Shown piece by piece: positions 43,531 to 62,884 of a stretch of DNA of 64,000 nt. Where the stretch lies: positions 46,341 to 110,340 of the forward strand of contig JAZQGF010000005.1 of assembly GCA_045539875.1 (NCBI GenBank), written 5' to 3'. Below the pieces are notes generated by a model. It did no database searches. It worked only from the letters and a program-made list of their open reading frames with translations, and was not told where the DNA came from. Made by a program: the position numbers and the translations under genes. How positions within the stretch are numbered: position 1 is the stretch's first letter; the number at the start of each line of letters is the position of its first letter. This stretch comes from Acutalibacteraceae bacterium (GTDB taxonomy: Bacteria; Bacillota; Clostridia; Oscillospirales; Acutalibacteraceae).

Positions 43531-43980
43531 TTATTCTTCCATCTGCTTTCCGAGGAATGATGCGGCAATCTGTGCAAGCTTTGTTTCAGTCTGGGTAGGG
43601 CATGAACCGTTGTCGTTCATAAGCATCACAAGCGCACCCGAAACATCACCGCCTCCAACTATCGGAAACGCAACCGCAGCCTCTCTGCCATAGCCCTCAA
43701 CAGGCTTCATTCGCTCACTGTCAACGCAGCATACATAGTTTTCGCGTTTTTCCATAAGGCTCTCAAGACTGCCGCTGATGCGTCGGTCAAGAACTTCCTT
43801 TTTGGAAACGCCTGCGCACGCAATAACGCTGTCCCTGTCGGTAATAATAACCGCAAGACCCGTACCCCTTGCAAGCACCTCGGCATACTGAGCCGTAATC
43901 GAAGAAAGCTCTCCTATAGGTGAATATTTTTTAAAAATAACCTCCCCGTCAGAATCCGTATAAATCTCCAACGGGTCGCC
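43531..43980 (-). pseudogene. spoVT: 3' part of interrupted spoVT
   Basis: GDPLEIYTDSDGEVIFKKYSPIGEL..ITDRD..IACAG..AASFLGKQMEE matches SpoVT from about residue 30 onward; the N-terminal part is missing. Confidence 0.9.
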
Positions 43981-45696: not shown

Positions 45697-45804
45697 TTTT
45701 TACACCTCTTTTCTGCTATCAAAGTTATCTGTTTTTGCTTTGTGTTATTACAGACAACATTGTATAACAAATTCCGATAAAATTCAAGTGGAAAATTAAA
45801 TTTA

Positions 45805-46053
45805 TCATAAAGCCGCTTGTTTTTCTTTCTTAACTTCAAGCTCGGGAATGCGGCGTTTGTTATATGCAAGCAAATCAAGCGTGCCCTGATACAAATCCTT
45901 TTCTCCGGATTCAAACACGGCAACAAGATATTTCATTTCTTTATATTTCTTATAAATGTCGTTCAGACCCTCTCGAAGAGCGGGGTCATTTTTTTCGGCA
46001 TTTGTAAGCCATATATCGACAATTTTTTTGTCATCTCTGACGTTAATTTCCAA
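45805..46053 (-). CDS. Hypothetical mobile-element protein (candidate directionality factor)
   Basis: 82 aa ORF between relaxase and recombinase, AAGGAG RBS. Confidence 0.6.
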   Translation of the reverse strand: MEINVRDDKKIVDIWLTNAEKNDPALREGLNDIYKKYKEMKYLVAVFESGEKDLYQGTLDLLAYNKRRIPELEVKKEKQAAL

Positions 46054-46059
46054 ATAGAA

Positions 46060-47052
46060 TCACACTCCTTTCTCCTTATTTTTACTTGTGGCGGCTTCTT
46101 TATTCGCCGCGTTATTCCTTGCGATTTTTATAAGTTCGGGCGGTAGACCATCAACTGTTTTCCTCAGTTCTTCAAGTTCGCTGAGCTTCTGATTGATTTC
46201 AAGCTTTCTCTGCACGCTGTCTTTTGATGCAGAGTCAAGCTTCTTTTCGAGTTCACTGACTTCTTCGGTCAGCTCCTTATATGCCTTATCGTATCTTTTC
46301 AGCTTTGTTCTCAAAGCTTCAACTCCGGGAATATATCTTTCAAGAAGAGCTTCAAGCTCCTCGGTTTTTGTCTTTTTATTGATTATGTTTGTATCCGCCA
46401 TCAGGGTCATAATCTGTTCCTTCATGCGGTTAAGATGCACAGCTTCTTTGAAAAGCGAGGGAGGAATATGAGATCTTCCCGTCACGCTTGCGCTTTCGCC
46501 GCGCTCCATGTCGGGATACTTCTTCACCATGTGTTTCCAGAATTCATCCTGCCACCAGGTCAGCTTTTTTCTGTTGCCGACTATGTCTTTTGCACTCAGT
46601 CTGCCGTCTTCCGTTATCGGAACGAACGACAGATGCATATGCGGTGTTTTTTCATCAACGTGAATAACCGCAGATATGATTCTTTCTTTGGGAACGTGTT
46701 TCAGAATGAATTTCAGTGCATGTTCAAAATATTCTCTGATCTGTGCTTTCTTCTTGCCCTTGAAAAATTCGGGACTTGCTGTTATCAGCGTTTCAACAAC
46801 TCTGACGCTGTCTGTTCTTGTTCTGCAGCCTGCGGCTGCAATCTGTCTTTCCGCTTCTGCACGGTATTTTGAATTCGGTTTAACAAGATGAATGTTGTAT
46901 TTGCTTCTCTCGGTATCAACGTCGGGATTACTTGCATAAACCTCTTTCGTGCGTTCATTATGTGCCTCAATTCTGCTGATTTCGGGACCCTTGTATTTTG
47001 CAAATCTCAGTATTGCGTGCTGACTTTTCGTTTCTTTGCCTATAAAAATCAC
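46060..47052 (-). CDS. MOBV (Mob/Pre) relaxase
   Basis: HAILRFAK, HNER, HVDEKTPHMH, coiled-coil tail. Confidence 0.92.
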   Translation of the reverse strand: MIFIGKETKSQHAILRFAKYKGPEISRIEAHNERTKEVYASNPDVDTERSKYNIHLVKPNSKYRAEAERQIAAAGCRTRTDSVRVVETLITASPEFFKGKKKAQIREYFEHALKFILKHVPKERIISAVIHVDEKTPHMHLSFVPITEDGRLSAKDIVGNRKKLTWWQDEFWKHMVKKYPDMERGESASVTGRSHIPPSLFKEAVHLNRMKEQIMTLMADTNIINKKTKTEELEALLERYIPGVEALRTKLKRYDKAYKELTEEVSELEKKLDSASKDSVQRKLEINQKLSELEELRKTVDGLPPELIKIARNNAANKEAATSKNKEKGV

Positions 47053-47621
47053 TCCTTGTTTTCTTTGATATATTTTTCAAGATGTTCAATACAGTTGTTA
47101 CAGAAAAGGTCGTCAACAACCTCGTTCTGTTCTTCCTTTGTGCCTGTGTCGAGAAGCTCTGCCATGTATTCGGTAACCTCAAGCATACGGCAGGCTTCGG
47201 CAAATCTCGGATGCAGTTTTTCATCCGCGGTTTTCGGTGCATAGTCAGTCATCCATTTCCGCAGAATGCGGTTGTAATCGCAGAGAACACGCACACATCT
47301 GTCATGTCGTTTCTGTTTTTCCTTATAGAAATTCAGTTTTGAATTAACGGAAATTTTCATTGTTTCAATGCCGTAATCGTCTGCAATTCTCTGCGCCGCA
47401 TCGGCGGCAGACAAGCTGAGATGTTCAGCGACAAGACTGATAACGTCACCCTTTGCGCCGCAACCGAAGCAATAATAATATTTGTTGTTGAGTTTCATGC
47501 TCGGTATACGGTCATCGTGAAACGGACAGCGGACCATCGAGTTTTTACCGATATCCATCCCGTATTTCTCTGCTGCCATGCGCAGATTTACTTTTGATCT
47601 GACAGCCTCATAAATTGACAT
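47049..47621 (-). CDS. CHC2 zinc-finger (primase-type) protein
   Basis: CPFHDDRIPS..CFGCGAKGDVI. Confidence 0.88.
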   Translation of the reverse strand: MSIYEAVRSKVNLRMAAEKYGMDIGKNSMVRCPFHDDRIPSMKLNNKYYYCFGCGAKGDVISLVAEHLSLSAADAAQRIADDYGIETMKISVNSKLNFYKEKQKRHDRCVRVLCDYNRILRKWMTDYAPKTADEKLHPRFAEACRMLEVTEYMAELLDTGTKEEQNEVVDDLFCNNCIEHLEKYIKENKE

Positions 47622-51754: not shown

Positions 51755-52288
51755 CTAAACGACACGGAATGTCAGCATTTCATCAATGTCAACATTTTCA
51801 ATTTCGCATTCGACACCGCCACGCAAAAACGCTTTTAAACGGAAAAACTCCATACAACCGTTAACATAATCTACCAGCATTTTTGAGCGTCGCTTGTAGC
51901 CGTATTCTTTTAATAATGTTCTGAGCTTTATTCTCACATAATCCTTTGAACCGTCAACAACAATTCGGATTCTCATGTTTTTAAAAAACAAATCCAAGCC
52001 TGAAAAATCACTTGTGTAGTTGTCTTTTTCTAAGTTGCTTCCCAAATCAAACATGTCTTTTTGTATTGAAGGGAATTCAGCATCAATTGTTGTTTTATTG
52101 TAGAAATAATGTGTCCAATAGTATGTATCAAGAATAAGTTTTCGAAAATTATTTCTGTACTGCGGAGCAAGATAATCATTATCTTTTTCCCAAACAGCTT
52201 CAAGAAACTTCGCGATTTCTTTTTCGGTGAGTTCTCTGGCACTAACCAAAATTGCAAGGTCGAGTGCAGAATAATATAATTCATCCAT
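51755..52288 (-). CDS. Hypothetical protein coupled to helicase-HNH
   Basis: 177 aa; start overlaps the helicase stop (TAATG). Confidence 0.75.
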   Translation of the reverse strand: MDELYYSALDLAILVSARELTEKEIAKFLEAVWEKDNDYLAPQYRNNFRKLILDTYYWTHYFYNKTTIDAEFPSIQKDMFDLGSNLEKDNYTSDFSGLDLFFKNMRIRIVVDGSKDYVRIKLRTLLKEYGYKRRSKMLVDYVNGCMEFFRLKAFLRGGVECEIENVDIDEMLTFRVV

Positions 52289-54552
52289 TACTTGTCACCC
52301 TTTGTTCCGTTGCACTGGCGGCAAAGAATCTGTAAGTTTTCAGGTACACTCTTTCCGCCATTATTCATAGGTGTGATATGGTCAACCTGGAACCACACTT
52401 TTGATTTATCTGCCATACCGCAAATAGCACAGCAGTATTCACCGTTTTCATTTTTTGATTTTTCGAATGCCTGATCACGAAGTTCTTTTTCAAGTTCAGG
52501 TTTATATTTTCCGATTTCACTGAGAGGCAAATCTTCCAATGCTCTGGTACCGAATTTCACGTCGGGACCTGCATCTTCATAAATACCGGAATGAGAAATT
52601 TTGGTTCGTTCAATATCTAATTGACGGATAAAATAAAGTTTACGCCCGAAGAAAAGACGAAGAAGGTTTTCGTCTCCCGAGTCCCACATCGAATCGATAT
52701 ATTCTGCTCTTTTTCTCTCACCCATATCTTCGTCCCAAATATGCTGAGCAATCTTTGAAATATCAAGTTTGTTTCTGTCGATATCCTCATAGGTATAGAA
52801 TTTCGGAGCTTCACCATTCTGAGCGTAATATTTGAGTATGTTTATAACATCTTTTCTTTCGTATGAAGGAATCATTTCTCCGCAGAAAAAGGAATCATGG
52901 CACTGTTTTTCCATTTCGTCGAGAATATCATCGGACAGATATTCTTCTTCTGTTGCTTCAAAGCTTTCAAACAATGCAGGAAGAGAATCCATAAGATTTC
53001 TGTAAGCTTCGGCAGTGCTGTCATATACCATAACACTGTATGCCGAGTCTACACCGCTTTTTTCTATATGTATAAACGCATATTTTCCTATGGGGATTCT
53101 TTGAATAAACGGAATTTTTTCGATAGCCGATGTATCAACGCAGTCATCAAGAAGTGAAGCGAATTCCTCTATTTTTGATATTGAAATAAGTCTCAGTTCC
53201 CTCTTGATTCTTTCAGGAGAATTATCAACAAAATCGTTGTCTTCACCGAAAATGCTTTCGGGAGAAACCCATGAAATGTTTTCGTTCCATCTGTCAACAA
53301 AAGATACTATATATGCTTCCGCCGTACCGCCTGCAGCTTCACCTCTGAGTGCTCTGCCGACCATCTGAGTCATAAGAACTTTTGATACGGTGGGTCTTGC
53401 AAGAAAAACGGTTTTTGTTTGAGGCAGATCAATTCCTTCGGTGAGGATATTAACATTTACGAGTACCTGTAATCTTCCTGCACGGTAATCCTCAATTTTT
53501 CTTTCGTTATCCTCATTGCTGATTGTTACACCTGTCACATGGTCTTTGACTGACGACACTATATAATCCGCTTTAATTCCTGCTTTTTTAAACTGTGCTG
53601 CAAGTTGGAAAGCATGGGGGACATTAACTGCAAAAACAATTGTCTGACCGTATTTATCCTGATTCTTACGGTATCTTTCAACAATAAGTTTATTTCGGCC
53701 TGCATTTTCTGCCATCTGACCCGCAATATCCTCGGGAATAGAGTCGAAATTCTGAATGCTTCTTACAGCATCAATGCCAAGGTATTCTCCGAAGTTTTCA
53801 TCGGTACGGCATTCATCAAAATTGGGATGCGAAAGAATCTGTTTGTTAATCAATTCAGTTAAATTGACAGAATATGCAATGCCGATATCATTATGAACAA
53901 CCTGACCGTCCTTGATTCCGTCGGTATATATTTTTGCAAGAAGACCTTGCTCGGATTCGGACGTGCGGAACGGTGTAGCTGTAAGTCCGATAAGCTTAAC
54001 GCAAGGTACTTTTGATTTTACATATTCAATTACCTTGCGATATGTTTTTGCTGTTGAATGATGCGCCTCATCAACAATCAGATAAATCTCATCTTCGCCT
54101 GCAAGCCAACTGTCAAGACGGTTAAGGTTTCTGCCTATACTGTCTTTGCTGACAATAAGCAAATTGTCTTTGGGCTTTATGTCACTTGTTCTGTCGTGAC
54201 TCGATGAGCCTGAAACAATTCGAAATGCAAAAGACGAAATGTGAGGAACAACTTCTGCATAGGCATATTTCTGGAATGATTCAGCAGCCTGTTCCAACAA
54301 CATCTGTCTGTGTGCAATCCAAAGTATTTTCTTGCCTTTGTCGATTGCGTTTTTCAAAAGCCACAATGAAGCTGTATATGTTTTTCCGCCACCGGTAGGA
54401 AGCACAACAAGTGTGCTGTATGATTTGGATTTATTCATCAGGTCAAGGTGTTCCATAGCCTTTCTCTGATGTTCATAAGGTGTTCTTGTATTTGAACCTT
54501 TACCGGGACAGATTTCGCCAAAAGATTTTACCGAAATTTGTTCGTTAAGCAT
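52288..54552 (-). CDS. SF2 DEAH helicase (ResIII-like) with C-terminal HNH nuclease
   Basis: PTGGGKT, DEAHH, TAT, QMVGRALR; CAIC..DHI..N..LC..CN. Confidence 0.9.
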   Translation of the reverse strand: MLNEQISVKSFGEICPGKGSNTRTPYEHQRKAMEHLDLMNKSKSYSTLVVLPTGGGKTYTASLWLLKNAIDKGKKILWIAHRQMLLEQAAESFQKYAYAEVVPHISSFAFRIVSGSSSHDRTSDIKPKDNLLIVSKDSIGRNLNRLDSWLAGEDEIYLIVDEAHHSTAKTYRKVIEYVKSKVPCVKLIGLTATPFRTSESEQGLLAKIYTDGIKDGQVVHNDIGIAYSVNLTELINKQILSHPNFDECRTDENFGEYLGIDAVRSIQNFDSIPEDIAGQMAENAGRNKLIVERYRKNQDKYGQTIVFAVNVPHAFQLAAQFKKAGIKADYIVSSVKDHVTGVTISNEDNERKIEDYRAGRLQVLVNVNILTEGIDLPQTKTVFLARPTVSKVLMTQMVGRALRGEAAGGTAEAYIVSFVDRWNENISWVSPESIFGEDNDFVDNSPERIKRELRLISISKIEEFASLLDDCVDTSAIEKIPFIQRIPIGKYAFIHIEKSGVDSAYSVMVYDSTAEAYRNLMDSLPALFESFEATEEEYLSDDILDEMEKQCHDSFFCGEMIPSYERKDVINILKYYAQNGEAPKFYTYEDIDRNKLDISKIAQHIWDEDMGERKRAEYIDSMWDSGDENLLRLFFGRKLYFIRQLDIERTKISHSGIYEDAGPDVKFGTRALEDLPLSEIGKYKPELEKELRDQAFEKSKNENGEYCCAICGMADKSKVWFQVDHITPMNNGGKSVPENLQILCRQCNGTKGDK

Positions 54553-54916: not shown

Positions 54917-55654
54917 ATGGTTACGCTTGAAGAATTATCTTCGTGGATAAAAGAAAACACTTCATTAAGCGACAGTTCAATTTATAAGTATTCCCGAGCA
55001 GTTAACACCATTTCAAAAGAAATGGTTGCAAAAGGTATTCTTCCCGTCAGCTTGTTTGAGTTGTCATCACTTCAACTTGATTTATATATTCCGATTATTT
55101 TTGATAATCCCGATTTCAAAGAAAAGAACAACACAGGAAACAATATGTACAGCAACGCACTCAAACAGTTCCGTATGTTTAGGACTGCAAACCCCGATGT
55201 AGTAACAAAACAACATGAAATTGAAAAAGCAATACCCAATTATGCAAATCTTAACGAAACTGAAAAAACCGCAATAATAAAATCCAGAGTCGGACAAGGT
55301 TTATTCAGAAAAAGACTGATGGAAAAATACAACGGTATGTGTATTATTACCGGTGTTTCAACAAAAAAACTTCTCATAGCAAGTCACATTAAACCCTGGG
55401 CTGCAAGCAACAACTATGAGCGCTTAAGTGAAGAAAACGGACTTCTGTTAACTCCGACATATGATAAATTATTCGATTATGGTTTGATTACATTTTCAAA
55501 TCTCGGCAACATAATAATTTCTCCGCAACTTTCATCTGAAGAAATTTCAAGATTGAAAATTTCTTCAGATATCGAATATGATTTGAAGGTTTCGGCAACA
55601 ATGCGAGAGCATTTAGATTATCACAGAGATAAAATTTTCGTAAGGTCAAGATAA
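54917..55654 (+). CDS. HNH endonuclease (putative restriction endonuclease)
   Basis: RVGQGLFR..CIITG..ASHIKPW..NGLLL..DKLFD.G. Confidence 0.88.
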   Translation: MVTLEELSSWIKENTSLSDSSIYKYSRAVNTISKEMVAKGILPVSLFELSSLQLDLYIPIIFDNPDFKEKNNTGNNMYSNALKQFRMFRTANPDVVTKQHEIEKAIPNYANLNETEKTAIIKSRVGQGLFRKRLMEKYNGMCIITGVSTKKLLIASHIKPWAASNNYERLSEENGLLLTPTYDKLFDYGLITFSNLGNIIISPQLSSEEISRLKISSDIEYDLKVSATMREHLDYHRDKIFVRSR

Positions 55655-55678
55655 ATTGTTTATAAGGAGAAATCCGCC

Positions 55679-57103
55679 TTGGACAGACATACTCCCGAGC
55701 AGCGTCGCAGAAATATGCAGGCTGTAAAGAATAAAGACTCCAAAATTGAAATAGCACTTCGAAAGGAACTGTGGGCAAGAGGCTTACGGTATCGTAAGAA
55801 TGCAAAAAATGTTTTCGGTAAACCCGATATCGCTTTCATCGGCAAGAAGGTTGCGGTATTCTGCGACAGCGAATTTTGGCACGGATATAATTGGGAAGAA
55901 AGAAAAGCGGATTTTAAATCCAACCAAGATTTTTGGATCCCGAAAATAGAACGCAATATTCAGAGAGATAAAGAAGTTACCGAAAAGCTTGAAGCTGACG
56001 GTTGGACCGTTCTGCGCTTTTGGGGCAAAGAGATAAAGAAAAATCCCGGCAAATGTGCCGACAGAATAGAAAAGGCGGTCAAAGGAAATATGCCTAACTA
56101 TAAATCCATAGATTTGTTTGCCGGTATCGGCGGTATCCGTTTGGGATTCGACAGAGCCTTCGGTAAAAATATCGAAACCGTTTTTGTCAGCGAATGGGAC
56201 GAAAATGCACAAAAAACATACAAAGCTAATTTCAGCGATAATTTTGAAATTGCCGGAGACATCACCGTATTTGACGAAAAAGATGTTCCAGAATTCGATA
56301 TCTGCCTCGCAGGTTTCCCTTGTCAGGCATTCAGTATGGCAGGTCAGAGAAAAGGTTTTGAGGACAACTACAAAGGTCTTTGCAGAGGTAACTTGTTCCT
56401 TGATGTTGCAAGAATCTGTGAACATCATAAGCCAAAAGTTATTTTCTGTGAAAACGTAAAAGGCCTTGTCATTCATGACAAGGGTCGCACATTCAAAATC
56501 ATATGTGATACTTTCAGACAGCTCGGTTACACCGTTCATCATCAAATTCTTAACAGTAAGGATTTCGGTGTGCCTCAGAACAGAGAAAGAATTTATATTG
56601 TCGCATTCAGAGATGATATAGATTCAACTTGGTTCAGATTCCCGCAACCCACAAATCCCGATACCGTTCTCAAAGATATTATGGAAGAAAACCCCGTTCC
56701 GGCAAAATATTATTTGAGTGAAACATATCTTCAGACACTTATAAACCATAAAGCTCGTCATGCTGCAAAAGGCAACGGTTTCGGTTATGAGGTCAGAGGT
56801 TGGGAAGATATTGCCGGTGCAATTGTGTGTGGCGGTATGGGCAGAGAGAGAAATCTTGTAATCGACAACAGACAGACCGATCTTACACCTACAACACATA
56901 TTAAGGGCGAAATCAACAAAGATGGTATCAGAAAAATGACACCGAGAGAGTGGGCAAGACTTCAAGGCTTCCCCGATGATTTTGTTCTTCCTCTTGCCGA
57001 TACACATCTTTACAATCAGTTCGGCAACAGCGTAACCGTTAATGTTATTGAAGCCATAGCTAAAAAAATAAAAGAGGTGTTGGACAATGATAACGGGAAA
57101 TAA
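55679..57103 (+). CDS. Vsr endonuclease fused to C5-cytosine methyltransferase (M.HpaII-like)
   Basis: Vsr part: RRNMQA..GKPDI..DSEFWHG..GWTVLRFW. Methyltransferase part: FAGIGG, GFPCQ, ENV, Q.RER, and target-recognition region GNGFGYE..GGMGRERNLVID. Confidence 0.9.
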   Translation: MDRHTPEQRRRNMQAVKNKDSKIEIALRKELWARGLRYRKNAKNVFGKPDIAFIGKKVAVFCDSEFWHGYNWEERKADFKSNQDFWIPKIERNIQRDKEVTEKLEADGWTVLRFWGKEIKKNPGKCADRIEKAVKGNMPNYKSIDLFAGIGGIRLGFDRAFGKNIETVFVSEWDENAQKTYKANFSDNFEIAGDITVFDEKDVPEFDICLAGFPCQAFSMAGQRKGFEDNYKGLCRGNLFLDVARICEHHKPKVIFCENVKGLVIHDKGRTFKIICDTFRQLGYTVHHQILNSKDFGVPQNRERIYIVAFRDDIDSTWFRFPQPTNPDTVLKDIMEENPVPAKYYLSETYLQTLINHKARHAAKGNGFGYEVRGWEDIAGAIVCGGMGRERNLVIDNRQTDLTPTTHIKGEINKDGIRKMTPREWARLQGFPDDFVLPLADTHLYNQFGNSVTVNVIEAIAKKIKEVLDNDNGK

Positions 57104-58160
57104 AGGCGAATGGAGCGAAGCATATGTGCTTCTTCGTTTGCTTGCTCAAGGTAGAATTTATGCCGCAAATGAAAATCTCGAGCAAATCGATGATATGTAT
57201 TTCCCTATTCTGAAAATACTTCGTGAAGAAATAAAAAATAATAAATACGAATATACGGTTGATTCGCAGGACAGAAAAATTGACATTTATTTCAACAACA
57301 ATCTTGTTAAATCATATCCGCAGAATCAGTTTTGTAAAGAAGCTGATTATCTTTATGATAAGATTACCGAAGGCGGCAACCGTGCTTTTGCTATAGAGCA
57401 GAGCGAAGAATTTCTCAAAGAAATCGGTTGCGGCAGACTTGCTGCACCCTCAAGCGACAAAACGGATATCACGATGCAGATTCACGACATTCAAACAGGA
57501 TATTCTCCCGTTTGCGGTTTCAGCATCAAATCCGAAATAGGCAATGCACCCACGCTTATTAACGCAACGGGTGCAACAAACTTTGTTTATGAAATCGAAG
57601 GTCTTGATGACGAGCAAATTGATTCTATCAATGCAATCGACACAAAAACAAAAATCCGAGACAGAATGAATCGAATTTTCGGTGAAGCATCTTCGGTTAA
57701 GTTTGTTAAAGTGAATAGTGATACTTTCGCAAACAACCTTATGCTTATCGACAGCCGTTTGCACGAAATTGTTGCCGAATCACTTGTTGTTCATTACAGA
57801 GACGGTTTCGGCAAATGCCGTGAAGTTGTCAATGCTCTTGAAGAAACAAATCCGCTCGGATTCCCTGCAAGCGGTTTCTATGAGTATAAATTCAAAGAAC
57901 TGCTTTGCTGTGCGGCTCTCGGTATGACTCCCGCAACCGTTTGGGACGGTCATGATGAAGCTAACGGCGGATATATTGTTGTAACTTCTGCAGGCAACGT
58001 ACTTGCTTATCACATTTACAACAGAGATTTCTTCAAAGAATATCTGATGAACAACACAAAGTATGAAAGAGGTTCAACAACCAGACATGGTTTTGCTTCT
58101 CTCTACAAAGAAAATGGTAAAACATATCTTAAGCTTAATTTACAGATAAGATTTATATGA
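57087..58160 (+). CDS. HpaII-family type II restriction endonuclease
   Basis: GNKGEWSE N-terminus, GFSIKS..TL.NA, KLNLQIRF C-terminus. Confidence 0.85.
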   Translation: MITGNKGEWSEAYVLLRLLAQGRIYAANENLEQIDDMYFPILKILREEIKNNKYEYTVDSQDRKIDIYFNNNLVKSYPQNQFCKEADYLYDKITEGGNRAFAIEQSEEFLKEIGCGRLAAPSSDKTDITMQIHDIQTGYSPVCGFSIKSEIGNAPTLINATGATNFVYEIEGLDDEQIDSINAIDTKTKIRDRMNRIFGEASSVKFVKVNSDTFANNLMLIDSRLHEIVAESLVVHYRDGFGKCREVVNALEETNPLGFPASGFYEYKFKELLCCAALGMTPATVWDGHDEANGGYIVVTSAGNVLAYHIYNRDFFKEYLMNNTKYERGSTTRHGFASLYKENGKTYLKLNLQIRFI

Positions 58161-58285: not shown

Positions 58286-59284
58286 ATGATAACATATACT
58301 AATGCAGAAAAAGTTTTACAAGGATTTACATTTATAGATTTGTTTTGTGGTATAGGCGGATTTCATTCAGCACTTTCATCTTTAGGAGGAAGATGTGTTT
58401 TTGCATCAGATATAGATAAAAATGCAAAAATTGTTTACGAAGATAATTATGGTATAAAGCCTCAAGATGATATAACCAAGATAGCTGTCGAAGATATCCC
58501 TCAACACGATATCATTTGTGCGGGATTTCCTTGTCAACCATTTAGCATATCAGGAAATCAAAAAGGATTTGACGATCCGAGAGGAAAGTTGTTTTTTAAT
58601 GTTGTAGAAATTGCCAACTATCATAAACCCAAAGTTATTTTCTTGGAGAATGTAAAAAATTTTGAAAAACATGACGATGGTAAGACATTAAAGCGTGCTA
58701 AAGGCGAATTACAAAGAATCGGATATACGGTTTATTCAAAGGTGTTATGTGCGTCTGATTACGGTGTTCCGCAAGCGAGAAAGAGAATATATATCGTTGC
58801 TTTTAGAAATGATATTGATTCAAGCAAGTTTTCTTTTCCAACACCTTTTGATAATTATAGAGTGTTGCAAGATATTTTAATTGATGATTCTTTAAATACA
58901 GTACAAGGGTCATATTTTATAGAAAGAGAACAGGAGTTTATAGAAAAAGTTCCTGATTATCGCTCGAACGAACTTGTTCGTATTGGCAAAATCGGATTAG
59001 GACGCCAGGGAGAAAGAATTTATTCTATTTTAGGTGTATCAACCACATTGTCTTCTCAAGGTGGTGGTCTTGGCGGCAAAACGGGCATGTATTTAGTTAA
59101 TGGCAAGGTTAGAAAATTATATCCCAGAGAATGTGCACGTTTAATGGGTTTTCCAGACACATTTAAATTAGCATTATCTCAAGAACAAAATTACAAACAG
59201 TTTGGTAATAGTGTTGTTGTAGAAGTAATTCAACTGATTGCTAAAGAGATCGCAAAATATTTACCGAAAAATCATGTTAAATAA
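58286..59284 (+). CDS. C5-cytosine methyltransferase (M.HhaI-like)
   Basis: FCGIGG, GFPCQPFS, ENV; target-recognition region QGERIYS..TLS..GGG..KTG.YLVNGK.RKL.PRECAR. Confidence 0.92.
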   Translation: MITYTNAEKVLQGFTFIDLFCGIGGFHSALSSLGGRCVFASDIDKNAKIVYEDNYGIKPQDDITKIAVEDIPQHDIICAGFPCQPFSISGNQKGFDDPRGKLFFNVVEIANYHKPKVIFLENVKNFEKHDDGKTLKRAKGELQRIGYTVYSKVLCASDYGVPQARKRIYIVAFRNDIDSSKFSFPTPFDNYRVLQDILIDDSLNTVQGSYFIEREQEFIEKVPDYRSNELVRIGKIGLGRQGERIYSILGVSTTLSSQGGGLGGKTGMYLVNGKVRKLYPRECARLMGFPDTFKLALSQEQNYKQFGNSVVVEVIQLIAKEIAKYLPKNHVK

Positions 59285-59305
59285 AATAAGGAGAAGAATA
59301 ATAAA

Positions 59306-61378
59306 ATGACTAATAAGCAAAAAATCCCCTTTAATTTTACTTATTTTGCAATGAAACTTTTAGGTAAAAATTTATACTCTACTCCTTGGACTGCAGTATC
59401 CGAAATTGTTGCCAACGGAATAGATGCTGGTGCAAATAATGTATATGTATTAATTGATATGCGCAACAAAGAAAAAGCTGTAGTTGAAATATTTGACGAT
59501 GGAAGCGGTATGTCCTTTGATGACCTGAGCCAGAAATACACACTCATAGGCAGAAACAAAAGATTAGAAAACGATAATAGGAACGGAAAAACTCTTGGAC
59601 GAAAAGGCATCGGTAAGTTGGCTGCGTTATATTTGTCTCCCAAGTATTATCTTTATACCAAAAGCATAGAAGGACAATCATCATGGGTAGTTGATACCCA
59701 AGGGATATTAGATAGTGATATTCCTGCACTTAATGAAACAACTTATGACAGTTCTCTTTTAATTTCTCGAAATCAATGGGAACAATTGACGACTGGCACA
59801 ATGATCCATCTTTCAGATGTGGATTTGCGTAGAATTGGCACGGAACGATTAAAAAGTCTTCCAGCTATGTTGGCAGATTATTATCTCGAAACTATTATTT
59901 CTTCTTCAATTTCTGTTTGTATTATAAACAACAACAATGATGAAATTAAGTTTGAAAAAATCAGAAAAAACATACACTTCGATACCATGTATGGTATATT
60001 TGATAATACTGGTCTTGGCTATAAAGATAAAATACAAGAGAAAGTTTATTTGACCAAGAATTCTGTTGAGCCTGCTATAGACTACGCCAGGCAAACAGTT
60101 AAACTTAACGAAGAGAAGTATCCTTGTACGGGGACACTTCAGATGGCAGATTTAAATGGTGTAATTAGGGAAGTCCCCTATAATATGGTTGGTTGGATAG
60201 GAATTCACTCATCGTTAGACAACGCAATACTTGAAAGAAATTCACCAAGTGCCAAAAGAATCCAAAATCATCCTAATGCATTGCGCTTGTATGTTAGAGG
60301 AAAACTTGCGGTAAATAATTTAATGACATATGTAGCTTCAACCGCTGCCTTTGCTTCTTATATTGAAGGGGAAATCTCGTTTGATATATTGGATGATGAT
60401 ATGTTTGAGGATGCTTCTACTTCAAACAGAGAGGGTTATAGTGTCAGCGATCCAAGAATTAAAAAACTTGTTGAAATTGTAGGGAAAATCATTACTACAT
60501 TGATAATAGAAAGAAACAAAGCAGGTAATATTATCAACGAAGAATTAAAAGCAATAAAGACTGCCAGGGAAGCAGAAACTGAAACTGAACGAAAAAAGAG
60601 AAAAGAAGCAGAAGCAGAAGCCACCCGCGAAAGGAAAAATGCAGAAAAGGCAAGCGAAGAAAAAGAAAAGGCAATAATTGAACGTGACACGGCTATATCA
60701 GAAACTGAAAAAGCACATAAACGTCTCTTTGTATTGGAAAACAATTTTACATCTGAGGGTGAGAACTATAGACACGCTATTCATCTGTCTGTTAATTTTG
60801 CTAAAGAAATAAGAAGTTTAGTTTGTGACTTTGAAGATTTTGATTTAGATGGCTGTGATAATATTATGGAAACCGTTATGGCTATCGACCGCTCAGCAGT
60901 CAAAATTGAGAATCTTCCAAAATTCATTGATTCTGCTACTTTTTCTTTATCCTCACCCACACTAAAAACTGATGTTGTTAAATTAATTAAAGAATACTTA
61001 GAGGCCAAGGGTAACAAACGCCTACAGTATTCATTTGATATTTCTGGCTCAACTATTAAGGAAATTGATTTTCCAGAAATCTTAATGTTCATAGAAAATG
61101 TTATAAGCAATTCGATTAAAGCGACTGCAACATCATTAAGAATTTCAAGTAAAATTGCTAATGGAAAATGTCAAATCGATTTTATTGATAATGGCAGAGG
61201 TTTAGACGAAAAATACTTGGCTAATCCTCAAGCAATATTTGAATTAGGAGAAACCAGTACTCCTGAAGGCTTTGGCATAGGAGCTTTTCACATGAAAGAG
61301 ATTGTCAAAAAATTAGAAGGACAAATTTTTGCTATACCTGCAACTCCTAATGGTTTGATAATAAGGGTGGTAATATAA
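59306..61378 (+). CDS. MORC/MutL-like GHKL ATPase fused to histidine-kinase domain
   Basis: N-terminal EIVANGIDA, DDGSGM, GRKGIGK; coiled coil; candidate His in RHAIH; ENVISNSIKA, DNGRG, IFELG, GFGIG. Confidence 0.85.
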   Translation: MTNKQKIPFNFTYFAMKLLGKNLYSTPWTAVSEIVANGIDAGANNVYVLIDMRNKEKAVVEIFDDGSGMSFDDLSQKYTLIGRNKRLENDNRNGKTLGRKGIGKLAALYLSPKYYLYTKSIEGQSSWVVDTQGILDSDIPALNETTYDSSLLISRNQWEQLTTGTMIHLSDVDLRRIGTERLKSLPAMLADYYLETIISSSISVCIINNNNDEIKFEKIRKNIHFDTMYGIFDNTGLGYKDKIQEKVYLTKNSVEPAIDYARQTVKLNEEKYPCTGTLQMADLNGVIREVPYNMVGWIGIHSSLDNAILERNSPSAKRIQNHPNALRLYVRGKLAVNNLMTYVASTAAFASYIEGEISFDILDDDMFEDASTSNREGYSVSDPRIKKLVEIVGKIITTLIIERNKAGNIINEELKAIKTAREAETETERKKRKEAEAEATRERKNAEKASEEKEKAIIERDTAISETEKAHKRLFVLENNFTSEGENYRHAIHLSVNFAKEIRSLVCDFEDFDLDGCDNIMETVMAIDRSAVKIENLPKFIDSATFSLSSPTLKTDVVKLIKEYLEAKGNKRLQYSFDISGSTIKEIDFPEILMFIENVISNSIKATATSLRISSKIANGKCQIDFIDNGRGLDEKYLANPQAIFELGETSTPEGFGIGAFHMKEIVKKLEGQIFAIPATPNGLIIRVVI

Positions 61379-62367
61379 TGAGTAAATTTCGAATACTGTG
61401 GATTGATGATCAAGAGACAAAATGTAAACGCGATGTGCGAATGGTAAAGCGTATCATTGAATCTTTAGGATACGAAGCGGATATTCAGATAGTAGATGAC
61501 ATTTCTAAAGAAAGTCTCAGTAGTGAAAACGGAACATTAAATAAAGCTATAAAAGCTCGTGATGTTGACTTGTTTGTTATTGATTACAATTTAAAAAATG
61601 ATTTGTTTGGTGGGGATGTTGTTGAAGAAATAAGATGTAATAATGATATGTATACAGACATCGTTTTTTATTCGAGCGTCCAAAGTTCCTTAATTGATGC
61701 GGTAAAAGCCAGCTTTGATTCAGAATCTATCATGGAATATTTTGATGGTGTTTATATCGCTCCTTTAGGAGATGAGTTTATTGAAAAAATAAGAAGCGTT
61801 ATTGTGAAAATAATAAAATCATGGTACAATGTGCACTCAATAAGAGGAATTGTATTATCGAAGTCAAGTAAGTTTGAACAAATGGTTTCTAATGTTATTA
61901 ACACAAAATACGTAGCATGTTTGGACAAGCTAAAAGATGATTTGGACACTAAAGGTGAGAATGTTTGTCGTAGCACAAATGGAAAATGGAAGTCCGTAAA
62001 AGAATCGTCAGATCCTATTCCTCGAATATTAAACGATCCAATACAATTTAATTGGAAAGTAAAAGAATTGATTCTTAAAAGATTATGTGACGAAAACATA
62101 ATTAGTATTTCTTCATGGTCAGATATAAAATATATCTTCAGTTTGAGAAATGATTTTGCTCACAACCCAATGCATTTGAGAGATGGCGTATTGGTACTCG
62201 AAACAACTCGTGGTGAGCAAACATTCGATGAAAAGAAGATTGAGGATATAAAAGATGCGTTAACGCGAATCGAGAATGATTTACAAAATTTAATTAATGA
62301 AAATGATGGAGAAAATATAATTCCGGAAATAACAGAAGAAACAGACGAAGAATTATGCATTGTCTAA
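61378..62367 (+). CDS. Response-regulator receiver domain with C-terminal HEPN-like domain
   Basis: ILWIDD, DLFVIDYNL, FYSS; RNDFAH (R-X4-H). Confidence 0.75.
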   Translation: MSKFRILWIDDQETKCKRDVRMVKRIIESLGYEADIQIVDDISKESLSSENGTLNKAIKARDVDLFVIDYNLKNDLFGGDVVEEIRCNNDMYTDIVFYSSVQSSLIDAVKASFDSESIMEYFDGVYIAPLGDEFIEKIRSVIVKIIKSWYNVHSIRGIVLSKSSKFEQMVSNVINTKYVACLDKLKDDLDTKGENVCRSTNGKWKSVKESSDPIPRILNDPIQFNWKVKELILKRLCDENIISISSWSDIKYIFSLRNDFAHNPMHLRDGVLVLETTRGEQTFDEKKIEDIKDALTRIENDLQNLINENDGENIIPEITEETDEELCIV

Positions 62368-62470
62368 AAACATAATCGAATTTCATTAATAAATCCATTT
62401 GCTATATCGTGTTTTATGATTCCCTTTCTAACTTTTTGTTTTCACATTTTCAGTTTTGAGGACAAACGAA

Positions 62471-62884
62471 ATGACAAAAGAACTCATCCACGACCCGATT
62501 TTGCTTGCAAGGAAATCGGAGAAAGCGACAATTCAAGATTTGCAGGTGGCACAGGATTTGCTGGATACTCTCAACGCTCACAAAGATGGTTGTGTAGGTA
62601 TGGCGGCGAATATGATAGGTGTGCACAAGCGTATTATTGCTTTTGATAACGACGGCACATATATGGTTATGTTTAACCCCGAAATCATAAAGAAATCGGG
62701 ACCCTACGATGCAGAAGAAGGCTGTCTTTCTCTGCTCGACGGTCCCCGAAAGTGTAAGCGCTATCAGACAATAAAAGTGCAGTGGCAGACGGCTGAATTT
62801 CAGACCCGTATCAAGACTTTCACAGGTTTCCCTGCACAAATAATTCAGCATGAGGTTGACCATTGTGACGGAGTATTAATATGA
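62471..62884 (+). CDS. def: Peptide deformylase (short form)
   Basis: GMAANMIG, EGCLS, QHEVDH. Confidence 0.92.
   Translation: MTKELIHDPILLARKSEKATIQDLQVAQDLLDTLNAHKDGCVGMAANMIGVHKRIIAFDNDGTYMVMFNPEIIKKSGPYDAEEGCLSLLDGPRKCKRYQTIKVQWQTAEFQTRIKTFTGFPAQIIQHEVDHCDGVLI

What the first reader, a model, noticed from the sequence alone, without database searches (positions are those of the whole stretch)
58286..62367. Methyltransferase, GHKL-histidine kinase and receiver-HEPN: candidate phosphorelay-gated defence system
Seen: an HhaI-like methyltransferase with no adjacent classical endonuclease. Next is a soluble protein with two ATP-binding domains (MORC/MutL-like N-terminal, histidine-kinase C-terminal). 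It is coupled (TAATG) to a receiver with intact acidic pocket and phospho-acceptor Asp, whose output has RNDFAH instead of an HTH. Established: R-X4-6-H is the HEPN RNase motif, and MORC-type ATPases occur in restriction-modification neighbourhoods. Inference: the ATPase senses unmethylated or foreign DNA, or inhibition of restriction, and signals by His-Asp transfer to an RNase effector causing abortive infection.
Basis: partly seen in the sequence, partly recalled or inferred. Interest (0 to 1): 0.8.

Follow-up and report, generated by a model that had tools for sequence, protein, structure and literature searches.

The report
Methylase-linked kinase relay to RNase
Three tightly packed genes (a DNA cytosine methylase, a MutL/MORC-like ATPase fused to a histidine kinase, and a phospho-receiver protein ending in a probable HEPN RNase) form a mobile cassette that most likely acts as a restriction-modification-like immune or addiction module; its outline was published in 2021 and it has never been tested.

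Summary
Window 58286-62367 carries three co-oriented genes:
- an M.HhaI-like C5 methylase;
- a soluble 690-aa protein with an N-terminal MutL/MORC-type GHKL ATPase, a coiled coil, a DHp-like helix with an invariant His493, and a complete histidine-kinase catalytic domain;
- a 329-aa protein, overlapping by TAATG, with a receiver fold (Z 14.6) and a C-terminal helical domain.

That C-terminal domain's best structural matches are HEPN proteins. It carries an invariant R-N-x3-H at the position that defines HEPN.

Only these three genes are conserved together, in all 20 related loci with enough flank, across Clostridia, Bacilli, Bacteroidota, Kiritimatiellia and Calditrichota.

GHKL-kinase "putative restriction enzymes" were noted in 2008. 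The methylase + paraMORC-kinase + receiver cassette was described by computation in 2021 (Pfam HEF_HK / Response_reg_2), and a related five-gene system, Ambrosia, was shown to defend in 2025.

The window's proteins match neither Pfam model. The 2021 paper and the 2025 preprint do not mention HEPN (word searches of both), and a library search for HEPN, GHKL and receiver returned only the 2013 HEPN survey. I therefore call it a new variant of a known kind.

Phosphotransfer, RNase activity, the trigger and phage protection are all inferred. This scan has already met the cassette on other DNA (20 notes, at least 16 genomes).

The parts
58286..59284 (+). C5 DNA cytosine methylase, M.HhaI-like (332 aa; catalytic PCQ Cys83)
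   Evidence: Pfam DNA_methylase E 3.6e-92. Full-length match to M.HhaI, E 4e-107. A C5 methylase sits directly beside the kinase gene in 20 of 20 related loci with enough flank.
59306..61378 (+). Soluble paraMORC-like ATPase fused to a histidine kinase (690 aa): GHKL ATPase + middle domain + coiled coil + DHp + CA
   Evidence: HATPase_c_3 E 1.1e-24 and HATPase_c E 2.7e-15. NCBIfam BbrUII/HgiDII restriction-enzyme model matches residues 16-436 only (E 5.8e-43, 147 bits against a cut-off of 550). No transmembrane segment.
59381..59710 (+). N-terminal MutL/MORC-type GHKL ATP-binding domain (residues 26-135)
   Evidence: Invariant Bergerat motifs E33, N37, D40, D64-G66-G68, G98-K100-G101-G103 and G164-T165 in 26 and 19 homologues. 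Closest solved sequences are MutL N-terminal domains and Hsp90/MutL by profile.
60782..60784 (+). Codon of His493, the candidate phospho-accepting histidine of the DHp helix
   Evidence: Invariant in 26 of 26 and 19 of 19 homologues down to about 20% identity. The family profile aligns over DHp+CA with the solved kinases ZraS, ThkA and HK853. In the ThkA alignment His493 falls on the H-box His; in the ZraS alignment it lies 7 residues upstream of it.
61088..61366 (+). Histidine-kinase catalytic (CA) domain, residues 595-687
   Evidence: N box (N598, N602, K605), G1 (G630), F box (F645, G648) and G2 (G655, G657, G659) are invariant or nearly so. Profile match to the VicK-like kinase 4i5s, E 3.3e-14.
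61376..61380 (+). TAATG stop/start overlap coupling the kinase and receiver genes
   Evidence: Read directly. AAGGGTGG lies about 10 nt upstream of the ATG.
61378..61827 (+). Receiver (REC) domain of the 329-aa protein, residues 1-150; Asp69 codon at 61582-61584
   Evidence: AlphaFold2 model with pLDDT 80. VIA-align Z 14.6, rmsd 2.2 over 131 residues to the ComE REC domain, and dozens of other receivers. Foldseek E about 2e-4. D11, D69 and S99 invariant. 51 of 60 distant family members match Pfam Response_reg.
61828..62313 (+). HEPN-like C-terminal domain, residues 151-312
   Evidence: Domain model with pLDDT 87, pTM 0.83. The best VIA-align rows are HEPN proteins: AF_0298 Z 8.7, Roquin 8.4, Csm6 7.4/7.3, HEPN toxins 7.2/7.0, plus HepS, AbiF, sacsin HEPN and MtlR. 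2 of 60 relatives match Pfam HEPN_Swt1.
62146..62163 (+). RNDFAH (R257-H262), the Rx4-6H motif
   Evidence: R257 and H262 invariant, N258 and A261 nearly so, in 26, 19 and 60 homologues. The motif sits at the end of helix 247-262, before the last helix; this is the helix-3 position that PMC3710099 gives for HEPN.

Best explanation
This is a self-contained, horizontally mobile three-gene cassette built like a restriction-modification system. The DNA-cutting module has been replaced by a two-component phosphorelay that ends in an RNase.

Proposed working:
1. The M.HhaI-like methylase marks the host's own DNA (probably GCGC).
2. The soluble kinase uses its MutL/MORC-type ATPase head, which is homologous to the N-terminal two thirds of HgiDII-type restriction enzymes, to detect a DNA-borne danger signal. 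The most likely signal is unmodified incoming DNA, read either directly or through the methylase.
3. Detection switches on autophosphorylation at His493.
4. The phosphoryl group passes to Asp69 of the receiver.
5. Receiver phosphorylation releases or dimerises the HEPN domain, which cleaves RNA and arrests the infected (or cassette-losing) cell.

Shown here: the domain identities, the conserved catalytic residues, the gene coupling, the strict three-gene conservation, the co-inheritance of transmitter and receiver, and the patchy mobile distribution.

Inferred: the trigger, phosphotransfer, RNase activity and the protective outcome.
For: Domains and residues
- Kinase core with invariant His493 and N/G1/F/G2 boxes, aligned to solved kinases over DHp+CA.
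- Intact ATPase motifs in the N-terminal GHKL domain.
- Receiver fold with invariant D11/D69/S99.
- HEPN-like fold with invariant RNxxxH at the defining position.

Operon
- TAATG overlap.
- Methylase-kinase-receiver adjacency in 20 of 20 loci from five phyla; no other gene is shared by more than 4 loci.

Partnership
- Receiver and HEPN identity track DHp/CA identity (r 0.91-0.94; partial r 0.77 given the sensor).
- They track the sensor less well (partial r 0.36). Sensors 41-45% identical to the window's sit on transmitter-receiver pairs at background identity.

Link to restriction enzymes
- Residues 16-436 match the BbrUII/HgiDII restriction-enzyme model and REBASE-derived PADLOC REase models.
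- PMC2441816 records GHKL-kinase and GHKL-Ymh 'putative REases'.
- PMC3710099 records paraMORC-HEPN fusions in R-M neighbourhoods.

Precedents for defence by phosphorelay
- Detocs: mutants of the kinase His and the receiver Asp lose defence.
- Ambrosia: methylase + HATPase-kinase + REC; D60A loses defence.

Mobility
- The cassette lies to the right of a serine-recombinase/Mob_Pre island junction in a low-GC stretch.
- The receiver-HEPN gene occurs in only 1 of 300 other genomes sampled from the same order.
Against: - No experiment exists for this family.
- HEPN fold support is moderate. Z 8.7 is within the range helical bundles can reach by chance. Foldseek found nothing, Pfam HEPN models do not reach threshold on the window's protein (E 0.14), and sequence profiles find no solved HEPN.
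- The receiver lacks the conserved Lys in this clade.
- The register of His493 against the canonical H-box is ambiguous: on the His in ThkA, 7 residues upstream in ZraS.
- The methylase has been exchanged against a nearly unchanged sensor (L003: sensor 62% identical, methylase 24%). This argues against a simple model in which the sensor itself reads the methylase's target sequence.
- In Ambrosia the authors propose transcriptional control, not direct effector activation.
Confidence: 0.55

Rival explanations
1. Guard or dead-man's-switch polarity. The kinase is constitutively active while the methylase/DNA state is normal, and phosphorylation keeps the HEPN RNase off. Phage interference (anti-restriction proteins, SAM depletion, DNA degradation) or loss of the cassette stops the phosphate flow and the RNase fires.
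For: Same anatomy as the best explanation. Unlike Detocs, there is no separate 'buffer' receiver to absorb leaky signalling, which suits a system whose resting state is the phosphorylated one. The methylase-toxin pairing and the location on a mobile island fit an addiction role.
Against: In most receiver-effector proteins, and in Detocs and Ambrosia, phosphorylation activates: Asp-to-Ala mutants lose defence and are not toxic. Nothing in the sequence settles polarity.
Confidence: 0.15
2. Regulatory two-component system. The receiver-HEPN protein is a post-transcriptional or transcriptional regulator (an RNA-binding or narrowly specific RNase) that tunes expression of the methylase or of nearby restriction genes. 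This is what was proposed for Ambrosia's REC-wHTH regulator. It would not be a cell-arresting effector.
For: For the related Ambrosia system the authors propose that the kinase-receiver pair induces expression of the R-M-like genes on infection. Bellieny-Rabelo et al. also framed the pairs as a signalling system near R-M genes. Some HEPN-fold proteins, such as MtlR, are regulators; MtlR and YggD are among the structural matches.
Against: Only the three genes are conserved, so there is no constant nuclease gene to regulate. R257, N258 and H262 are invariant across 60 representatives at about 20% identity, as expected of a catalytic RNase. No DNA-binding output domain was found.
Confidence: 0.15
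3. The 690-aa protein is itself an ATP-dependent restriction endonuclease, as the REBASE/NCBIfam naming of its relatives implies, and the 329-aa protein is an accessory subunit. The cassette would then be an ordinary, if unusual, Type II R-M system.
For: Matches to the BbrUII/HgiDII restriction-enzyme model and to REBASE-derived REase_II models. REBASE lists GHKL-kinase proteins as putative REases.
Against: The matches cover only the N-terminal GHKL and middle part (profile positions 10-392 of 659; 147 bits against a cut-off of 550). The C-terminal part of HgiDII, where its unassigned putative nuclease lies, is replaced here by coiled coil + DHp + CA. No nuclease family matches either protein.
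Confidence: 0.05
4. A housekeeping or epigenetic signalling pair. The MutL-like head monitors DNA methylation or mismatch state for repair or gene regulation, with no role in conflict with phages or plasmids.
For: The head domain is closest to MutL. C5 methylation creates T:G mismatches, and Vsr genes are frequent near the published relatives.
Against: Sparse, patchy distribution (1 of 300 other genomes sampled from the order). Location on a mobilisable island among restriction genes. Modular shuffling of methylase, sensor and transmitter. All of these are typical of conflict systems, not housekeeping ones.
Confidence: 0.05

Closest known systems
HEF_HK / Response_reg_2 'two-component-system-like' elements next to C5 methylases (Bellieny-Rabelo, Pretorius & Moleleki 2021, PMC8011034)
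   Same: Same three-gene order: C5 methylase, then a soluble HATPase_c_3 + DHp + HATPase_c kinase, then a receiver-like protein. I confirmed this in four true members, L030-L033. The paraMORC ancestry and R-M neighbourhood are the same. The two ends of the kinases are homologous (31% identity, E 2e-10 and 7e-4).
   Different: - The window's proteins and all 21 related loci fail both Pfam models, even at E 10.
- A profile comparison of the receivers is not significant.
- The published proteins are much longer (about 990 and 550 aa against 690 and 329), and their roughly 350-aa output domain has no RNxxxH.
- The paper never mentions HEPN or an RNase, and its family is mostly proteobacterial.
Ambrosia (bioRxiv 10.1101/2025.09.30.679545)
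   Same: An experimentally validated anti-phage cluster that combines a DNA methylase, a sensor histidine kinase/Hsp90-like ATPase and a receiver protein. The receiver Asp is needed for defence.
   Different: Ambrosia has five genes: an XRE regulator, an N6-adenine methylase, a receiver with a winged-helix output and a separate type IV HNH nuclease. Its authors propose transcriptional induction. Here the methylase is a C5 enzyme, there is no conserved regulator or nuclease gene, and the receiver carries a HEPN-like domain itself. I could not compare sequences directly because none were at hand.
Detocs, the defensive two-component system (bioRxiv 10.1101/2023.01.24.525353)
   Same: Same logic: a kinase passes phosphate to a receiver fused directly to a cell-arresting effector domain. 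Effector domains are exchangeable.
   Different: Detocs has a TPR sensor, a third 'buffer' receiver gene, PNP/REase/TOPRIM/TM effectors and no methylase. No PADLOC model matches the window's receiver protein or (bar two isolated weak hits) 60 of its relatives.
paraMORC-HEPN fusions and GHKL 'putative restriction enzymes' (R.NmeAIP, R.EcoUTORF4938P, R.HgiDII; PMC3710099, PMC2441816, PMC2292703)
   Same: A MutL/MORC-type GHKL head in methylase neighbourhoods, joined either directly to a Ymh-type HEPN domain or to a histidine-kinase CA domain. The window's head and middle domains match the HgiDII/BbrUII model.
   Different: Here head and HEPN are on two proteins, linked by a His-Asp relay rather than by fusion. 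The score is far below the HgiDII family cut-off, and HgiDII's C-terminal domain is absent.

Membership tests
Two-component system (histidine kinase + response regulator) | Catalytic ATP-binding domain with N, G1, F and G2 boxes | tested here: met
   HATPase_c E 2.7e-15. N598, N602, G630, F645, G648, G657 and G659 are invariant; K605 and G655 nearly so. Profile matches to solved kinases, E down to 3e-14.
Two-component system (histidine kinase + response regulator) | DHp helix with a conserved phospho-accepting His next to the CA domain | tested here: met
   His493 is invariant in all homologues. The profile aligns across DHp+CA of ZraS, ThkA, HK853, KinB and CpxA. His493 falls on the H-box His in ThkA but 7 residues upstream of it in ZraS, so the exact register is uncertain.
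Two-component system (histidine kinase + response regulator) | Receiver (beta-alpha)5 fold with acidic pocket, acceptor Asp and Thr/Ser | tested here: met
   Z 14.6, rmsd 2.2 over 131 residues to ComE REC. D10/D11, D69 and S99 conserved. 51 of 60 relatives match PF00072, best E 4.8e-12. The window's own protein scores only E 0.022.
Two-component system (histidine kinase + response regulator) | Conserved Lys at the end of receiver strand 5 | tested here: not met
   This clade has A128-P129-L130 and no conserved Lys or Arg nearby. At least half of the wider family has Arg at the equivalent of position 130.
Two-component system (histidine kinase + response regulator) | Autophosphorylation and His-to-Asp phosphotransfer | not testable with these tools
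   Indirect support only: gene overlap and co-inheritance of DHp-CA with the receiver.
HEPN superfamily | Four-helix up-down core with an insert between helices 2 and 3 | tested here: inconclusive
   With VIA-align, at least 17 of the 50 best rows are HEPN-domain proteins, top Z 8.7 (2hsb), rmsd 2.9 over 102 residues. That Z is in the range helical bundles can reach by chance, and Foldseek gave no match below E 0.5.
HEPN superfamily | Rx4-6H motif at the end of helix 3, usually with a polar residue after the Arg | tested here: met
   R257-N-D-F-A-H262 ends helix 247-262 and precedes the last helix. R and H are invariant and N nearly so in 60 representatives at about 20% identity. The position is as defined in PMC3710099.
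HEPN superfamily | Match to a curated HEPN sequence model | tested here: inconclusive
   Window protein: HEPN_RiboL-PSP E 0.14, below cut-off. 2 of 60 relatives match HEPN_Swt1, best E 8e-4. 1 of 60 matches PADLOC CARF_HEPN, E 2e-4.
HEPN superfamily | Metal-independent RNase activity | not testable with these tools
   No assay was possible.
HEF_HK / Response_reg_2 cassette (Pfam PF19191, PF19192) | Kinase matches PF19191 (HEF_HK DHp) | tested here: not met
   No match at E 10 in the window's genome and none in 8 related kinases. True members score E 1e-27 to 3e-28.
HEF_HK / Response_reg_2 cassette (Pfam PF19191, PF19192) | Receiver matches PF19192 (Response_reg_2) | tested here: not met
   No match at E 10 in the window's genome. 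In five related genomes the best was E 0.03, below cut-off. True members score E 1e-43 to 1e-13.
HEF_HK / Response_reg_2 cassette (Pfam PF19191, PF19192) | Architecture HATPase_c_3 + DHp + HATPase_c, adjacent receiver gene, adjacent C5 methylase | tested here: met
Detocs | TPR-sensor kinase DtcA, stand-alone buffer receiver DtcB, receiver-effector DtcC | tested here: not met
   The sensor is a GHKL ATPase, not TPR. There is no second receiver gene in the window or the related loci. No PADLOC model matches the receiver protein. Only the receiver-effector logic is shared.
BbrUII/HgiDII restriction enzyme family (NCBIfam NF050001) | Full-length match above the curated cut-off, including the C-terminal domain | tested here: not met
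   147 bits against a cut-off of 550. Only profile positions 10-392 of 659 are matched, by residues 16-436.
Type II restriction-modification system | Methylase plus a cognate DNA endonuclease | tested here: not met
   The methylase is present. No nuclease domain was found in either partner protein. The neighbouring R.HpaII is not conserved with the cassette.

The most novel reading that the evidence does not exclude
The cassette is a restriction-modification derivative in which the methylation state of DNA is read by a MutL/MORC-type ATPase clamp, possibly using the methylase as its specificity subunit. The read-out is not DNA cleavage but a His-Asp phosphorelay that switches on a HEPN RNase. 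Three modules (methylase, sensor head, transmitter plus receiver-RNase) are shuffled independently. This would be a direct molecular link from an epigenetic DNA mark, through two-component signalling, to RNA-level abortive infection.
Probability: 0.35. Interest if true: 0.75.

Novelty: new variant of a known kind. Interest (0 to 1): 0.55.

Why it matters
If the relay works as read, it shows that bacteria turned the sensing half of an ATP-dependent restriction enzyme into the input of a two-component system, and swapped DNA cutting for RNA cutting. That would link three well-studied subjects: DNA methylation, His-Asp signalling and HEPN RNases.

It would also give the first biochemical handle on what MutL/MORC-type ATPases in restriction-modification neighbourhoods actually sense, a question open since 2008 and relevant to eukaryotic MORCs.

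The family is large: 455 clusters at 50% identity with E at or below 1e-10. PADLOC 2.0.0 has no model for the receiver-HEPN protein, and its REase_II models match only the N-terminal part of the kinase. Current annotation may therefore miss the cassette or label it as plain restriction-modification.

The window's copy is compact (4.1 kb, three genes) and suits a direct test.

Tried and rejected
HEPN domain: searches that gave nothing usable
- Foldseek of the HEPN-domain model against PDB: nothing below E 0.5; an HEPN entry appears only at rank 20.
- Sequence profiles of the receiver-HEPN family against PDB: only a serine-recombinase catalytic domain (E 0.003) and coiled-coil noise.
- ESM Atlas on residues 150-312: no usable hit.

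Relation to the published Pfam families
- Profile-profile comparison of the window's receiver family with true Response_reg_2 proteins: not significant (E 0.13). Common descent of the two receiver families is neither shown nor excluded.
- PF19191 and PF19192 searched in the window's genome and in five related genomes at E 10: no member-level match.

Neighbouring genes
- I considered whether the neighbouring HNH_2, Vsr-methylase, R.HpaII, helicase-HNH and 177-aa genes belong to the system. None has a homologue in the 21 related loci, so I rejected this.
- I looked for a fourth conserved gene by all-against-all clustering of flanking ORFs. Nothing is shared by more than 4 loci.

Does the sensor head co-vary with the methylase?
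- If the head read the methylase's target, the two should co-vary. It does not clearly do so (partial r 0.24 given DHp-CA). L003 pairs a 62%-identical sensor with an unrelated methylase.

Other
- Promoter and terminator scans were at chance level.

Tools unavailable
I therefore obtained no metagenomic neighbourhoods for the many Logan/ENA homologues and no expression data; read laying was not run, as it takes run ids from the look-up of sequencing runs.
- Both structure-prediction jobs went on the 329-aa protein, so the 690-aa protein was not modelled.

Full report
**What is there**

Window 58286-62367 holds three co-oriented ORFs in a low-GC stretch. GC is 0.31-0.36, against 0.45 from about 62.5 kb onward.

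- ORF1 (58286-59284, 332 aa) is a C5 cytosine methylase (Pfam DNA_methylase E 3.6e-92). It aligns end to end, target-recognition region included, with M.HhaI (E 4e-107). GCGC is therefore the likely target; that is an inference.
- ORF2 (59306-61378, 690 aa) has an N-terminal HATPase_c_3 domain (residues 26-135) and a C-terminal HATPase_c domain (595-687). It has no hydrophobic segment.
- ORF3 (61378-62367, 329 aa) starts inside the TAATG that ends ORF2. It has no Pfam, NCBIfam or PADLOC match above threshold. The only hints are Response_reg at E 0.022 and HEPN_RiboL-PSP at E 0.14.

**The 690-aa protein**

I aligned 26, and separately 19, homologues reaching down to about 20% identity.

- The Bergerat ATP-binding motifs of the N-terminal domain are invariant: E33, N37, D40, D64-G66-G68, G98-K100-G101-G103, G164-T165.
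- So is His493, on a helix just after a charged coiled-coil segment (residues 400-480).
- So are the kinase N, G1, F and G2 boxes: N598, N602, G630, F645, G648, G657, G659.

A profile of the family matches solved histidine kinases over DHp plus CA: ZraS E 2.7e-12, ThkA 1.9e-11, HK853 1.1e-10. His493 falls on the H-box His in the ThkA alignment. In the ZraS alignment it lies two helical turns upstream. It is a strong candidate for the phospho-acceptor, but its register is not settled.

The N-terminal 436 residues match the NCBIfam BbrUII/HgiDII restriction-enzyme model. The match covers only positions 10-392 of 659 and scores 147 bits against a cut-off of 550. They also match REBASE-derived REase_II models in PADLOC. 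The nearest solved sequences are MutL N-terminal domains.

The protein thus looks like the ATPase/sensor two thirds of a GHKL-type restriction enzyme, with the C-terminal part replaced by a kinase transmitter.

**The 329-aa protein**

AlphaFold2 on 26 homologues gave pLDDT 80.

Residues 1-150 are a receiver domain:
- VIA-align Z 14.6, rmsd 2.2 over 131 residues to ComE REC, followed by dozens of other receivers.
- Foldseek E about 2e-4.
- D10/D11, D69 and S99 are conserved.
- In 60 representatives at about 20% identity, D69, Y98 and S99 stay invariant, and 51 of them match Pfam Response_reg, best E 4.8e-12.
- The conserved Lys after strand 5 is absent in this clade (APL). Most of the wider family has Arg there.

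Residues 151-312, modelled alone, gave pLDDT 87 and pTM 0.83.
- Foldseek finds nothing significant.
- The exhaustive VIA-align search is headed by HEPN proteins: AF_0298 Z 8.7, Roquin 8.4, Csm6 7.4/7.3/6.1, HEPN toxins 7.2/7.0/6.3, plus HepS, AbiF, YutE, HI0074, TT1696, sacsin HEPN and MtlR/YggD. That is at least 17 of the 50 best rows.
- The Z values alone would not carry the case for a helical domain.
- What adds weight is the motif. R257-N-D-F-A-H262 ends the penultimate core helix, exactly where PMC3710099 places the Rx4-6H motif. R257 and H262 are invariant and N258 nearly so across all alignments.
- Two of 60 relatives reach Pfam HEPN_Swt1 (E 8e-4) and one reaches PADLOC CARF_HEPN.
- I read the domain as HEPN with fair, not full, confidence.

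**Conservation of the cassette**

A scan of one genome per GTDB species gave 21 loci.

- In all 20 with enough flank, a C5 methylase, a dual-GHKL kinase and a receiver-HEPN gene lie next to each other. In 19 they follow the window's order and orientation; in L003 the methylase is divergent.
- The hosts span Clostridia, Bacilli, Bacteroidota, Kiritimatiellia and Calditrichota.
- Eight divergent kinases tested all keep both GHKL domains.
- All-against-all clustering of the flanks finds no other gene in more than four loci.
- None of the window's neighbouring restriction genes recurs in those loci. These are the helicase-HNH, HNH_2, the Vsr-methylase fusion and R.HpaII.
- The HEPN-domain profile finds 942 clusters at 50% identity (455 at E 1e-10 or better). 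Nearly all are 300-340 aa with the domain at about 135-305, so the receiver-HEPN architecture is the rule.
- Within the window's own order, only 1 of 300 other sampled genomes has the gene.
- The cassette lies to the right of a serine recombinase::SpoVT_C junction with a Mob_Pre relaxase.

**Modularity**

- Receiver and HEPN identities between loci follow DHp/CA identity (r 0.91-0.94; partial r 0.77 given the sensor). They follow sensor identity far less (partial r 0.36).
- A whole group (L007-L014, L012, L021) has sensors 41-45% identical to the window's, but transmitters and receiver-HEPN proteins at background identity.
- Some metagenomic homologues (P0180, for example) have a 79%-identical head on a 23%-identical DHp.
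- So the transmitter and its receiver travel as a unit, as cognate pairs do, while sensor heads are recombined onto them. These pairs are related, so the correlations are descriptive, not tests.
- Methylases are swapped as well. The window, L001 and L002 carry HhaI-like enzymes. L003 has a 62%-identical sensor but an unrelated methylase (24% identity).
- This weakens the simple idea that the head itself reads the methylase's target. It leaves room for the methylase acting as the specificity subunit.

**What is known**

- Iyer et al. 2008 placed MORC/paraMORC ATPases in R-M operons.
- Orlowski & Bujnicki 2008 listed REBASE 'putative REases' with a GHKL head and either a histidine-kinase domain (R.EcoUTORF4938P) or a Ymh domain (R.NmeAIP).
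- Anantharaman et al. 2013 recognised Ymh as HEPN and noted paraMORC-HEPN fusions in R-M contexts.
- Bellieny-Rabelo et al. 2021 described HATPase_c_3 + HEF_HK + HATPase_c kinases with adjacent Response_reg_2 proteins next to C5 methylases in 628 strains, without naming an output domain.
- I fetched true members (L030-L033). They show the same gene order with longer proteins, about 365, 990 and 550 aa.
- The window's proteins and all their relatives fail both Pfam models. The receivers are not significantly alike by profile. The kinases share only their two GHKL ends.
- Detocs shows that kinase-to-receiver-effector relays can defend.
- Ambrosia shows defence by a methylase + HATPase-kinase + REC-wHTH + HNH cluster that needs the receiver Asp.
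- A library search for HEPN, GHKL and receiver together returned only the 2013 HEPN survey. Neither the 2021 paper nor the Detocs and Ambrosia preprints mention HEPN.

**Verdict**

The mechanism is plausible but untested: a methylation-linked sensor kinase switching on a HEPN RNase. I put it at about 0.55, with a guard-type polarity and a purely regulatory role as the main rivals.

The thing is a distinct branch, with an identifiable RNase effector, of a class already outlined in print. It is a new variant of a known kind. This scan has reported the same cassette repeatedly on other DNA (20 notes in at least 16 genomes).

Noticed in passing
window 62456-62884 (+); L001:4470-4883; L014:148-603: A short peptide deformylase gene (137-151 aa, Pfam Pep_deformylase E about 3e-29) lies right beside the cassette in the window (downstream) and in L001 (upstream). 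A homologous ORF lies upstream in L014 (it clusters with the L001 gene by BLASTP; Pfam was not run on it). It may be mobile-element cargo travelling with the cassette rather than the host's own def.
   Followed up: partly
L001:9038-9460 (-), L003:3604-4068 (+), L004:8975-9427 (-): In the three closest relatives a 140-154-aa gene with a weak YpsA/SLOG match (E 5e-6 to 5e-5, below cut-off) lies near the cassette: about 40-50 bp downstream in L001 and L004, and about 460 bp beyond the divergent methylase in L003. No counterpart was seen in the window. SLOG domains bind nucleotides in other conflict systems.
   Followed up: partly
L007, L009, L010, L011, L012, L014, L015, L021 (receiver-HEPN genes, region just after the RNxLAH motif): One subfamily has a longer hairpin after the RNxLAH motif, carrying four Cys (for example C-x3-C...C-x2-C). 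This looks like a zinc-binding insert next to the predicted active site. It recalls the beta-hairpin and zinc ion described for Csx1 in PMC3710099.
   Followed up: no
L030:6711-8447, L031:6703-8346, L032:7509-9110, L033:6535-8262: True Response_reg_2 (PF19192) proteins carry a roughly 350-aa C-terminal region with no Pfam match, no RNxxxH, and an invariant C-x4-C-D plus a C-terminal R-V pair. The effector of the published cassette family is thus still unidentified and differs from the one here.
   Followed up: partly
window 54917-58160: Directly upstream lie an HNH_2 endonuclease gene, a Vsr::C5-methylase fusion (474 aa; the methylase part is 38% identical to the cassette's methylase) and an HpaII-type endonuclease that overlaps the fusion's end. 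This is a separate, complete R-M unit. With the helicase-HNH gene at 52288-54552 it makes the region a defence island.
   Followed up: partly
window 43531-47621: A serine recombinase fused in frame to a SpoVT C-terminal domain is followed by a Mob_Pre relaxase and a primase-like zinc-ribbon protein. An AbrB-like 63-aa ORF on another contig (C35:11168-11257) could be the missing SpoVT N-terminus. If so, the island runs off the end of this contig.
   Followed up: partly
L012:9170-9793, L013:5075-5947, L021:8983-9621: In the Faecalibacterium/Roseburia copies an ORF lies just downstream of the cassette that matches RloB in L012 (Pfam E 1e-39) and clusters with it by BLASTP in L013 and L021. This again places the cassette among defence genes.
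   Followed up: no
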